DNA of 64,000 nt from the NCBI RefSeq assembly GCF_017348835.2, contig NZ_CP071375.1, one strand, 5' to 3'. A program made the position numbers. The DNA comes from Escherichia coli (GTDB lineage: Bacteria; Pseudomonadota; Gammaproteobacteria; Enterobacterales; Enterobacteriaceae). This document shows, piece after piece, positions 15,001-18,000 of this stretch (its first letter is position 1; each line of letters starts with the position of its first letter).

Positions 15001-18000
15001 TCGATATCATCGTTAGGGTCCAGTTCAATGGTTCCCAGCACACCGTCCGTGCCGGGGACGACCGTTAATGATTGCAATACCCCCTGCGCCTGATAAGAAC
15101 CGCCTGGCACGACAGGTAAAATACTGGTCAGTTTGCCGTGGAACACCTGCCCAGGTAGCGCGTTAAACACCACTTCCGCATCATCGCCAGGTTTCAGACG
15201 TAACAGCGAGTTTTGCCGAAATTGGGCGACAATTTGCCGTTTTTGCTCGGGGATGAAAACCATCACCGGACGCAACGGCAAGGCAGCTGCGTATGTGCCT
15301 GGGCGGATCAGTACCTGAGTGACGTAGCCATTGCTTGGTGCGCGAATGACAGTCTGCTCAAGATTATATTTTGCTTCAGTAAGTTGCGCTCTTAAGCTCA
15401 CAATCTGCGATTGCTCGCCGTTGACCATACTGTCGAGCTGACTCTGGATCTGCGCCTGCTCCGCCACCGAGCCTTTCACTGACGCATCCTGCGCGAGGAA
15501 ATTTTGCCGCGCATCGTCGATGTCACGTTCCGAGAACGGATTCACCGCCGCCTGGCTGCCTTTCAGGTAACGTTGATAATTTTTAAACAGACGGTCGCGC
15601 TCCGCTGAAACCTGGGTGGTGTTGGCCTGCGCTTCAGTGAGCTGGGCGCGCAGCGTTTTTATATTATGCGTCGCCGTCATCAGGTCAGCCTGAAGTCTGT
15701 CAACTCGCGCCTGGTAACGAACCGGGTCGAGCTTAAAAAGTACCTCGCCCTTTTGAATAAGCTGATTATTCTTGTCAGTGACTTCAGTAACAATTCCCGT
15801 CACCTGTGGCGTGATGGGGATCGCTATCACAGCCTTTTGCGCGGTAAAAGTGTAAGGATGGTTGTAGTTCATCAACAAAATCAAACCACTCACCAGAAAC
15901 ACGCCTCCCAGCGCCGCCGTCGCCAGCGTCCACTGATTCACCGGAATGCGGAAGATTTTAAAGACCGCCCACGCCAGCGCCACGTAAGTTAAAACAATCA
16001 ATAGATCCATAATTAGATCTCCGGGAACGTGGAATAATCAGTCTTTTTCTCGGCGGCGAGTTGGTGCTCCAGCCTGGAAATTCGGTCAGAAAGTGCGGCG
16101 ATTTCCGGGTCAGTCGCTTTCTCCTGCGACGCAACATGTGACTGCATGCCCCACCCGCGCTCCGGTTGATAGAGCGTCGCCCAGATCCACAGAAACGGCC
16201 AGATAACATGCAGAGTAAACAGGCTCACCCAGCCCGCCGTATGAATAGCGTCGGCATGGGGATGGTTGCGCTTTTTGGCAATCAGATAAGGGATGTCATG
16301 TATCGCGATGATTCCATAAAAAATCACCAGAAAGACGAAGATCAGCACTCCCAACGCGAAATAGTTTAGAAACATATTTGCCTCGGATTCACGTTTATCA
16401 GTGTTGTTTTTTGGCTGGCAGCCAGAAGGGAGTCAGGCTGATATTTTGACAATAATCCGGGTTCGCGATTCTCGCCATAACACCAAAGAATAATTTTTAG
16501 AGGTGATGAGTTGCTTAGTTACATAACGATTGTATGACGAAGGCATAACATGCTGTAGATCACATCAGGTGAACGCCGTAAGAAAATATCTTGTGATTCA
16601 GATCACAAAGATTCAACAAACCATTAAAACAAAAATGTGACACTACTCACATTTAAATGCCATTTTTAGCGAAAATCGCCGCCTTGTTGCTTTTTTACAC
16701 AAGCGTTTTGTGATGAACGTCACGTCAATTACCTCTCTACCCCCTATATTTATGTGATTGATATCACACAAAAGGCCGTCGACTGGACAGTTAACCGATT
16801 CAGTGCCAGATTTCGCAGTATCTACAAGGTCCGGCTACCTCTGCCGCCACATTAACAAAAAACCTCGGGCTTCCAGCCTGCGCGACAGCAAACATAAGAA
16901 GGGGTGTTTTTATGTCATCCGATATTAAGATCAAAGTGCAAAGCTTTGGTCGTTTCCTCAGCAACATGGTGATGCCAAATATCGGCGCGTTTATCGCGTG
17001 GGGTATCATCACCGCGTTATTTATTCCAACAGGGTGGTTACCGAACGAGACGCTGGCGAAGCTGGTCGGGCCGATGATCACTTATCTCCTGCCGCTGCTG
17101 ATCGGTTATACCGGTGGTAAGCTGGTAGGCGGCGAACGTGGCGGCGTAGTCGGTGCCATCACCACCATGGGCGTTATCGTCGGCGCAGACATGCCGATGT
17201 TCCTCGGTTCTATGATTGCAGGTCCGCTGGGCGGCTGGTGCATTAAGCACTTCGACCGCTGGGTAGACGGTAAGATCAAATCCGGTTTTGAGATGCTGGT
17301 GAATAACTTCTCCGCAGGCATCATCGGGATGATCCTCGCCATTCTGGCATTTCTCGGCATTGGCCCGATTGTTGAAGCCCTGTCCAAAATGCTGGCTGCG
17401 GGCGTTAACTTCATGGTTGTCCATGACATGCTGCCGCTGGCGTCTATCTTTGTTGAACCGGCGAAAATCCTGTTCCTCAACAACGCCATTAACCACGGTA
17501 TCTTCTCGCCGCTGGGTATTCAGCAGTCCCATGAACTGGGTAAATCCATATTCTTCCTGATTGAAGCTAACCCAGGTCCGGGTATGGGCGTGCTGCTGGC
17601 GTACATGTTCTTTGGTCGTGGTAGCGCTAAACAGTCTGCGGGCGGTGCGGCAATCATCCACTTCCTGGGTGGTATCCACGAAATTTACTTCCCGTATGTG
17701 TTGATGAATCCGCGTCTGATCCTGGCCGTTATCCTCGGCGGTATGACTGGCGTGTTCACGCTGACTATCCTGGGCGGTGGTCTGGTTTCTCCGGCATCTC
17801 CGGGTTCTATCCTTGCTGTACTGGCGATGACACCAAAAGGTGCTTATTTCGCTAACATCGCGGGTGTGTGTGCGGCGATGGCTGTCTCCTTTGTTGTCTC
17901 TGCTATTTTGCTGAAAACCAGCAAAGTGAAAGAAGAAGATGATATTGAAGCAGCAACTCGTCGTATGCAGGACATGAAAGCTGAGTCTAAAGGTGCATCT

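What the first reader, a model, noticed from the sequence alone, without database searches (positions are those of the whole stretch)
16592..16769. Four consensus-grade CRP sites stacked in the mtlA promoter
Three perfect TGTGA-N6-TCACA sites and one near-perfect site occur within 180 bp upstream of mtlA. This is an unusually dense array. It agrees with the known strong catabolite control of mtl, but the perfect match of several sites is striking.
Basis: partly seen in the sequence, partly recalled or inferred. Interest (0 to 1): 0.3.

Follow-up and report, generated by a model that had tools for sequence, protein, structure and literature searches.

The report
Known CRP site array of mtlA
This is the well-studied control region of the E. 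coli mannitol operon. Its row of strong CRP binding sites, set exactly 44 bases apart in pairs, both switches the operon on and serves as the docking platform for the MtlR repressor, so the finding is real but already explained.

Summary
The only three perfect TGTGA-N6-TCACA matches in the 64-kb window lie at 16592-16607, 16636-16651 and 16753-16768 (0.05 expected by chance). The only 1-mismatch site lies at 16709-16724. All four are in the yibI-mtlA spacer of an E. coli chromosome.

Their centre-to-centre spacings (44, 73, 44 bp) match the published sites CRP2 to CRP5 of the mtl operator (-219.5, -175.5, -102.5, -58.5).

The array has been known since 1995 (Ramseier & Saier, "five binding sites"). 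It tops genome-wide CRP motif scans, is among the most abundant Genomic SELEX clones, and carries CRP ChIP-seq peaks.

A 2026 NAR paper explains the stacking. MtlR has no DNA-binding domain and represses by bridging two CRP dimers bound 43-46 bp apart. CRP2, CRP4 and CRP5 are also essential for activation.

My cross-species check supports a spacing constraint. Eleven Enterobacteriaceae genera keep 44/73/44, and eight of them also show the weak CRP1 43 bp upstream. There is no indel from CRP2 to the -35, although the spacers are only about 50% identical. In a truncated scan of about 100,000 genomes, 14 of 15 perfect CRP pairs at 44 bp sit next to mtlA.

Verdict: real, ordinary, already known.

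The parts
16549..16564 (.). CRP1, a weak site (CATGCTGTAGATCACA; 7 of 10 consensus positions), centred at -262.5
   Evidence: 3 mismatches, perfect right half, 43 bp from CRP2. PMC13421365: CRP1 lies at -262.5, matches 7/10, is poorly occupied and is dispensable. The ETEC ChIP table lists its reverse complement, TGTGATCTACAGCATG. A half-site ...GATCACA is kept at the same 43-bp offset in 8 of 11 Enterobacteriaceae genera.
16592..16607 (.). CRP2, a perfect site (TGTGATTCAGATCACA), centred at -219.5
   Evidence: The half-sites are invariant in 11 genera. Essential for activation (PMC13421365).
16636..16651 (.). CRP3, a perfect site (TGTGACACTACTCACA, with ideal AAA/TTT flanks), centred at -175.5
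   Evidence: It lies 44 bp from CRP2 in every mtl operator examined. Mutating it has only a minor effect on expression.
16709..16724 (.). CRP4, a 1-mismatch site (TGTGATGAACGTCACG), centred at -102.5
   Evidence: It lies 73 bp from CRP3 in 11 of 11 Enterobacteriaceae genera. Essential for activation. Listed in the ETEC ChIP table.
16753..16768 (.). CRP5, a perfect, promoter-proximal site (TGTGATTGATATCACA), centred at -58.5 (class I-like)
   Evidence: It lies 44 bp from CRP4 in all 12 Enterobacterales operators. Essential for activation. Listed in the ETEC ChIP table.
16684..16700 (.). Conserved T-tract block (TTGTTGCTTTTTTACAC) inside the 73-bp CRP3-CRP4 gap; function unknown
   Evidence: TGTTCTTTTTTTACAC-like sequence is kept in 9 of 11 genera, while the rest of the gap is about 49% identical. 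No role is assigned in the papers read. A bend or an extra factor site is my inference.
16784..16789 (+). -35 hexamer TGGACA of mtlAp
   Evidence: It lies inside the block CTGGACAG, which is invariant in 11 genera. It sits at exactly -35..-30 if the start is at 16819, the position derived from the published site centres.
16804..16812 (+). Extended -10, TGcCAGATT (hexamer CAGATT at 16807-16812)
   Evidence: It lies in the near-invariant block GTGCCAGATT. There is a 17-bp spacer from the -35. The generic promoter scan did not call it because the hexamer is weak, as expected for an activator-dependent promoter.
16819..16911 (+). Transcription start (about 16819) and the 93-nt mtlA 5' UTR
   Evidence: The start is derived from the published site centres. 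It was not measured here, and the published S1 mapping may be off by 1-2 nt. The UTR is 72% identical across genera but has many indels.
16912..18825 (+). mtlA, PTS mannitol transporter IICBA
   Evidence: NF011663, 1323 bits; RefSeq annotation.
19055..20203 (+). mtlD, mannitol-1-phosphate 5-dehydrogenase
20203..20790 (+). mtlR, the repressor without a DNA-binding domain that docks on CRP pairs
   Evidence: (NF008234, MltR family, E=1.6e-76), and PMC13421365.

Best explanation
This is the operator-promoter of the E. coli mtlADR operon. It carries five cAMP-CRP sites: CRP1 is weak, and CRP2 to CRP5 are consensus-grade. When glucose is absent, cAMP-CRP dimers occupy CRP2 to CRP5. CRP5, centred near -58.5, acts like a class I site to recruit RNA polymerase to a weak promoter (TGGACA, 17 bp, TGcCAGATT). 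The upstream sites CRP2 and CRP4 are also needed for activation. The sites are arranged as two pairs, CRP2-3 and CRP4-5, each exactly 44 bp centre to centre, with a 73-bp gap between the pairs. That 43-46 bp geometry lets a dimer of MtlR, which has no DNA-binding domain, bridge two DNA-bound CRP dimers and repress the operon when mannitol is absent. [quoted passage not shown] Shown here: the sites, their statistics, the match to the published coordinates, and the base-exact conservation of spacing. Taken from the literature: CRP binding, site essentiality and MtlR bridging. Inferred: the roles of the 73-bp phasing and of the T-tract.
For: Sites and statistics. Locus identity. The window is identical to K-12 C600 over all five sites and the promoter, so the K-12 experiments apply directly. 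The spacings 43/44/73/44 equal the published -262.5/-219.5/-175.5/-102.5/-58.5, and the derived start places the invariant TGGACA and CAGATT at canonical positions. Literature: five sites (Ramseier & Saier 1995, as cited); EMSA supershift by MtlR only with CRP pairs 43-46 bp apart; chromosomal site mutants; SELEX rank; ChIP-seq peaks listing these sequences; top rank in a PhyloScan CRP motif scan. My independent test: 11 Enterobacteriaceae genera keep 44/73/44, and 8 of them show CRP1 at 43 bp; Brenneria has 44/74/44, Actinobacillus 40/44, Orbaceae 44. There is no gap column from CRP2 to the -35, although the spacers and N6 cores are only 39-52% identical. The CRP4-5 spacing and the 73-bp gap were not part of the search pattern, except in Enterobacter sp. 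Bisph1, where the perfect pair that matched was CRP4-5. In the genome scan, 14 of 15 perfect pairs at 44 bp flank mtlA, and the only mtlA-adjacent pair at any other spacing is the 40-bp pair in the three-site Actinobacillus operator, which also holds a 44-bp pair. In divergent E. coli alleles, SNPs hit only the N6 cores and never the 10 consensus positions.
Against: CRP5 at -58.5 is about 3 bp from the canonical class I position of -61.5, and the start comes from old S1 mapping. How MtlR binding actually blocks transcription is still unresolved, as the paper's own Discussion states.
Confidence: 0.93

Rival explanations
1. The array is only a multi-site activator (a class III CRP promoter). Several strong sites simply raise CRP occupancy and give strong catabolite control, and their exact spacing has no special role.
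For: CRP2, CRP4 and CRP5 are each essential for expression and for growth on mannitol. The spacer is one of the strongest CRP targets in SELEX and in motif scans.
Against: The spacing is kept to the base (44/73/44, no indel) across genera whose spacer sequences are about 50% identical. That is much tighter than occupancy alone requires. A distance of 44 bp is about 4.2 helical turns, so it is not same-face stacking. EMSA shows MtlR binds only CRP pairs 43-46 bp apart, and gains binding on malK or on CRP3-4 when these are re-spaced to 44 bp.
Confidence: 0.05
2. The CRP sites mainly regulate the divergent yibI-yibH genes on the other strand.
For: The spacer is shared. PhyloScan and the ChIP table assign part of the signal to yibI. 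CRP spacers often drive both directions.
Against: yibI is found upstream only in Citrobacter (L034) and Pseudescherichia (L096). Eight other loci with 3-12 kb of upstream sequence keep the full array without yibI. The distance from the array to the mtlA -35 is fixed, whereas the sequence upstream of CRP1 cannot be aligned. The nearest strong site is more than 215 bp from the yibI start codon.
Confidence: 0.04
3. It is a CytR-type anti-activation module, as at deoP2 or cdd. A DNA-binding repressor would sit between tandem CRP sites.
For: GTTGCTT at 16510 and at 16686 resembles the CytR octamer GTTGCATT (the consensus is from memory).
Against: The motif is not conserved: other genera have TGTTCTTT. 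The spacings of 44 and 73 bp differ from the roughly 52-53 bp of CytR-regulated tandem sites (from memory). No CytR role at mtl is mentioned in the paper, which cites CytR only as a contrast.
Confidence: 0.01
4. It is a chance clustering of a short palindrome in AT-rich intergenic DNA.
For: The spacer is AT-rich (42% GC, against 50% for the window).
Against: Shuffles give 0.05 perfect matches per 64 kb, and 0 of 100 reach 3. The half-sites are invariant across genera while the N6 cores vary. Experimental binding is documented.
Confidence: 0.002

Closest known systems
The E. coli K-12 mtlADR operator-promoter (Ramseier & Saier 1995, five CRP sites; Lee et al. 2026, NAR gkag751, MtlR-CRP-DNA anchoring)
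   Same: It is the same locus. The sequence is identical over all five sites and the promoter, and the spacings 43/44/73/44 are the same.
   Different: Nothing of substance differs. The window strain differs from K-12 at three spacer positions outside the sites (16378, 16412, 16625).
Tandem-site (class III) CRP promoters such as malK, which has four CRP sites
   Same: Both have several CRP sites upstream of one sigma-70 promoter, and the sites contribute synergistically.
   Different: The malK sites are 34 bp apart and do not recruit MtlR unless re-spaced to 44 bp. mtl has more consensus-grade sites, arranged as two 44-bp pairs.
CytR-CRP repression complexes (deoP2, cdd, udp)
   Same: In both, a repressor works through protein-protein contact with two DNA-bound CRP dimers.
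   Different: CytR binds DNA itself between the CRP sites. MtlR has no DNA-binding domain and reads only the geometry of the CRP pair. No conserved CytR operator is present here.
Other recurrent perfect CRP pairs found in the genome scan: the glpT/glpA spacer of Pasteurellaceae (52 bp) and an MFS transporter / KduD-like SDR spacer of Enterobacterales (57-58 bp, probably yqcE/ygcW)
   Same: These are two perfect TGTGA-N6-TCACA sites in a carbon-source promoter spacer, conserved across species.
   Different: Each locus has its own characteristic spacing. The 44-bp spacing belongs to mtl.

Membership tests
cAMP-CRP binding site | A 16-bp core matching TGTGA-N6-TCACA, with palindromic half-sites | tested here: met
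   three sites match 10/10, one matches 9/10 and one matches 7/10.
cAMP-CRP binding site | Located in a promoter-bearing intergenic region, at activator distances from a sigma-70 promoter | tested here: met
   The sites lie in the yibI-mtlA spacer. The proximal site is 26 bp, centre to centre, upstream of the conserved -35 TGGACA.
cAMP-CRP binding site | Half-sites conserved across species while the N6 core and the flanks drift | tested here: met
   the CRP2 left half-site measured is 100% identical across 11 genera, and the other strong-site half-sites are invariant or nearly so in the alignment. The N6 cores are 39-48% identical. E. coli SNPs occur only in the N6 cores.
cAMP-CRP binding site | Bound by cAMP-CRP in vitro and in vivo | not testable with these tools
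   Literature only: EMSA, Genomic SELEX with 38 clones, the second most abundant, and ETEC ChIP-seq peaks listing these sequences.
MtlR-CRP-DNA anchoring operator (Lee et al. 2026) | Adjacent CRP sites 43-46 bp apart, centre to centre | tested here: met
   43 bp (CRP1-2), 44 bp (CRP2-3) and 44 bp (CRP4-5). CRP3-4 is 73 bp, the pair that does not bind MtlR.
MtlR-CRP-DNA anchoring operator (Lee et al. 2026) | An MtlR-family protein (no DNA-binding domain) encoded with the operon | tested here: met
   window 20203-20790 matches NF008234 (MltR family), E=1.6e-76. mtlR also lies next to mtlA/mtlD in L046, L084 and L096.
MtlR-CRP-DNA anchoring operator (Lee et al. 2026) | The spacing is conserved in relatives, independently of spacer sequence | tested here: met
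   44/73/44 in 11 of 11 Enterobacteriaceae genera, with no indel columns from 16592 to 16783.
MtlR-CRP-DNA anchoring operator (Lee et al. 2026) | MtlR supershifts the CRP-DNA complex, and repression depends on the spacing | not testable with these tools
   Literature only.
Class I CRP-dependent promoter | Proximal CRP site centred at -61.5, or further upstream by whole helical turns | tested here: inconclusive
   CRP5 is at -58.5 by the published start, or about -59.5 if measured from the -10 as at lac (my arithmetic). The start site was not measured here.
CytR-CRP anti-activation module | A conserved CytR operator between tandem CRP sites about 52-53 bp apart | tested here: not met
   The spacings are 44 and 73 bp. 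The GTTGCTT motif occurs only in E. coli.

The most novel reading that the evidence does not exclude
The two 44-bp CRP pairs may not be independent MtlR docking sites. They may instead be parts of one phased nucleoprotein assembly. The 73-bp gap between the pairs is about 7.0 helical turns, so CRP3 and CRP4 sit on the same face of the DNA. It is kept to the base in 11 genera (74 bp in Brenneria) and contains a conserved T-tract block (16684-16700). That block could be an intrinsic bend or the site of an unassigned factor, needed to fold CRP2-3 onto CRP4-5 for remote activation or for a four-CRP, two-MtlR repression complex. The 2026 paper raises looping and architecture as speculation. It does not report the conservation of the 73-bp gap or the T-tract.
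Probability: 0.3. Interest if true: 0.35.

Novelty: already known. Interest (0 to 1): 0.1.

Why it matters
As a discovery it matters little. The site array was published in 1995, and a mechanistic reason for the stacking appeared in 2026.

It is useful as a positive control. A reader working from sequence alone located four of the five experimentally defined CRP sites to within a base.

The one small addition from this work is comparative. Spacing, rather than sequence, is under base-exact constraint from CRP2 to the -35. This includes the 73-bp inter-pair gap, which the published work did not analyse. That supports geometry-reading by MtlR and hints at a higher-order architecture.

Tried and rejected
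- **Generic promoter scan.** It found no mtlA promoter. This fits a weak, activator-dependent promoter. I identified the promoter instead from cross-species invariance and the published coordinates.
- **Primary sources.** I tried to open Ramseier & Saier 1995 and Figge et al. 1994, but neither is held. No supplementary files of the 2026 paper are held, so primer sequences could not be used to anchor the coordinates.
- **Regulation of yibI.** Rejected as the main role, because the array travels with mtlA and not with yibI.
- **CytR-type module.** Rejected because the motif is not conserved and the spacing is wrong.
- **Direct repeat D1 (16510-16541 and 16686-16717, 72% identical).** It may correspond to the old "operator-like repeats". 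Only short TTACA-containing cores are conserved across genera, and I did not pursue it.
- **Rfam.** Nothing was found in the mtl region.
- **5' UTR consensus fold.** A CCUC:GGGG pairing over the Shine-Dalgarno sequence is predicted. It shows essentially no covariation (1 of 13 pairs), so I make no claim.
- **Candidate Cra site at 16789-16804 (AGTTAACCGATTCAGT).** It matches about 11 of 16 positions of a consensus recalled from memory. This agrees with the report that Cra binds near the -10 or the start site of mtlA, but it is unverified.

Full report
**1. The observation**

- A pattern search for TGTGA-N6-TCACA finds exactly three perfect matches in all 64,000 bases: 16592-16607, 16636-16651 and 16753-16768. 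Dinucleotide-preserving shuffles give a mean of 0.05, and none of 100 reaches three.
- The only 1-mismatch site in the window is TGTGATGAACGTCACG at 16709-16724. None of the twelve 2-mismatch sites lies in this spacer.
- So every site with at most one mismatch falls within 177 bp.

**2. The locus**

- The 536-bp spacer 16376-16911 is present in 5404 of 5426 complete E. coli genomes, always on the chromosome.
- The flanking genes are yibH and yibI on the minus strand and mtlA (16912-18825), mtlD (19055-20203) and mtlR (20203-20790) on the plus strand.
- The K-12 derivative C600 is identical to the window over all five sites and the promoter. It differs only at 16378, 16412 and 16625. Experiments done in K-12 therefore apply directly.

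**3. Match to published sites**

Lee et al. (NAR 2026, PMC13421365) state that the mtl operator has five CRP sites centred at -262.5, -219.5, -175.5, -102.5 and -58.5. The centre-to-centre distances are 43, 44, 73 and 44 bp.
- The window sites are centred at 16556.5, 16599.5, 16643.5, 16716.5 and 16760.5, which gives the same 43/44/73/44.
- With that start, the cross-species-invariant TGGACA (16784-16789) sits at -35..-30, and CAGATT (16807-16812, preceded by TG at 16804-16805) sits at -12..-7. This is an independent consistency check.
- The paper's statement that CRP1 has 7 of 10 consensus bases and CRP2 and CRP3 have 10 of 10 also matches.

Other published data agree.
[quoted passage not shown] It is cited, but I could not open it.
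- The yibI/mtlA spacer ranks first in the PhyloScan genome-wide CRP scan.
- It is the second most abundant CRP Genomic SELEX clone.
- In ETEC H10407 ChIP-seq it carries two CRP peaks, whose listed sites are CRP1+CRP2 and CRP4+CRP5.

**4. How it works (literature, plus what I could test)**

According to PMC13421365:
- CRP is required for mtl expression.
- Chromosomal mutation of CRP2, CRP4 or CRP5 abolishes expression and growth on mannitol. Mutation of CRP3 has a small effect, and CRP1 is dispensable and poorly occupied.
- MtlR has no DNA-binding domain. It supershifts CRP-DNA only when two CRP dimers are bound 43-46 bp apart. It does not bind the 73-bp CRP3-4 pair or malK (34 bp), but does bind both when they are re-spaced to 44 bp.
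- Dephosphorylated EII-Mtl sequesters MtlR at the membrane to induce the operon, and HPr competes for the same surface on MtlR.

The stacking is therefore more than strong catabolite control. The pairs are the repressor's docking platform.

**5. Independent comparative test**

I scanned the collection of about 100,000 species genomes for two perfect CRP cores 34-64 bp apart. The scan was truncated at 120 loci.
- Of the 15 pairs at 44 bp, 14 lie next to an mtlA homologue. The only mtlA-adjacent pair at another spacing is a 40-bp pair in the three-site operator of Actinobacillus, which also has a 44-bp pair.
- The peak at 46 bp is a 23-bp tandem repeat in a Tannerella MAG.
- Recurrent pairs at 52 bp (Pasteurellaceae) and at 57-58 bp (Enterobacterales) belong to other spacers: glpT/glpA, and an MFS transporter / KduD-like dehydrogenase pair that is probably yqcE/ygcW.

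I then extracted 420 bp upstream of mtlA from each mtlA-linked locus.
- All 11 Enterobacteriaceae genera show 44/73/44. Eight of them also show a weak CRP1 43 bp upstream.
- Brenneria has 44/74/44, Actinobacillus 40/44 and Orbaceae 44.
- The CRP4-5 spacing and the 73-bp gap were not part of the search pattern, except in one locus (Enterobacter sp. Bisph1) where the perfect pair was CRP4-5. They are therefore close to unbiased confirmations.

In the alignment there is no gap column from CRP2 to the -35 (16592-16783).
- Across that stretch the spacers are only 46-52% identical and the N6 cores 39-48%.
- The better-conserved 5' UTR (72% identical) has 23 gap columns.
- Length, not sequence, is what is constrained. 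That is what a geometry-reading repressor predicts.

Within E. coli, two alleles about 97% identical to the window carry 15 SNPs in the spacer. Seven fall in the N6 cores of CRP3, CRP4 and CRP5, and none falls in a consensus position.

**6. Rivals**

- **Activation only.** This does not explain the base-exact 44 bp (about 4.2 helical turns) or the EMSA spacing series.
- **Regulation of yibI.** This is unlikely as the main role. yibI is upstream only in Citrobacter and Pseudescherichia, while eight other loci keep the array without it.
- **CytR-type module.** Not supported.
- **Chance.** Excluded.

**7. What remains open**

- The 73-bp gap, about 7.0 turns, is as strictly conserved as the 44-bp spacings. 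It holds a conserved T-tract block (16684-16700) that the papers I read do not discuss.
- The authors speculate about looping or an architectural role for the upstream sites. A single phased assembly of both pairs is the most novel reading that my data leave open. I give it about 0.3.
- CRP5 at -58.5 is about 3 bp off the canonical class I position, and the start site rests on S1 mapping.

**8. Verdict**

The finding is real and correctly interpreted as far as it goes. It concerns one of the best-known CRP-dense promoters, and the reason for the dense stacking was published in 2026. Novelty: already known. Interest: low.

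Noticed in passing
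window 16641-16646, 16714-16719, 16758-16763 (compared with L122 and L123): In two divergent E. coli alleles, 7 of the 15 spacer SNPs fall in the 24 bases of N6 core, in CRP3, CRP4 and CRP5. Several are adjacent multi-base changes (16643-44, 16717-19). None touches the 10 consensus positions. The enrichment in the cores is odd, but the sample is tiny.
   Followed up: partly
window ~16573-16577; L124:461-2768: E. coli strain GPEC1054 carries an IS21-family element (istA/istB) inserted between CRP1 and CRP2. It cuts CRP1 and yibI away from the mtl promoter but leaves CRP2-5 intact. This fits CRP1 being dispensable.
   Followed up: partly
window 16684-16700: A T-tract block, TTGTTGCTTTTTTACAC, lies in the 73-bp CRP3-CRP4 gap. 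It is conserved in 9 of 11 Enterobacteriaceae genera, while the rest of the gap drifts. It also forms a 72%-identical direct repeat with 16510-16541, upstream of CRP1. Its function is unknown.
   Followed up: partly
window 16819-16911: In the mtlA 5' UTR, a conserved ACCUC is predicted to pair with the Shine-Dalgarno GGGGU. There is also a small GGGCU...AGCCU hairpin whose loop varies between genera. Almost no covariation is seen, so this is only a hint of ribosome-binding-site occlusion.
   Followed up: partly
window 16789-16804: AGTTAACCGATTCAGT lies between the -35 and the -10. It resembles the right half of the Cra/FruR consensus (recalled from memory, about 11 of 16). This agrees with the report that Cra binds near the -10 or the start site of mtlA. 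Not verified.
   Followed up: no
window 18860-19025: The mtlA-mtlD spacer holds REP/BIME-type palindromes (for example GCCGGATAAGGCG...CGCCGCATCCGGC) and a strong 18-bp-stem hairpin at 18984-19025. The 488-aa ORF at 18737-20203 in the mechanical ORF list is an upstream extension of mtlD; the real start is 19055.
   Followed up: partly
window 55997-56035 (-): The only Rfam match at gathering score in the whole window is a JUMPstart RNA element (55.2 bits). It presumably sits upstream of a polysaccharide or LPS-core operon.
   Followed up: no
window 11459-14414: An RHS element core protein gene and a frameshifted Imm57 immunity gene lie upstream of yibH. This comes from the annotation of a record that is 100% identical over the 536-bp yibI-mtlA spacer.
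   Followed up: no
L007, L017, L026, L036, L087, L099; L004, L016, L019, L029: There are other conserved pairs of perfect CRP sites with locus-specific spacing. Pairs at 57-58 bp in Enterobacterales lie between an MFS transporter and a KduD-like dehydrogenase (probably yqcE/ygcW, also high in PhyloScan). Pairs at 52 bp in Pasteurellaceae lie between glpT and glpA.
   Followed up: partly
L067:318-448, L068:2841-2950, L069:187-317: A Tannerella MAG carries tandem arrays with a 23-bp period. Each unit contains a perfect TGTGA-N6-TCACA palindrome, and the arrays occur on three contigs. They are unrelated to mtl and may be a repeat element.
   Followed up: no
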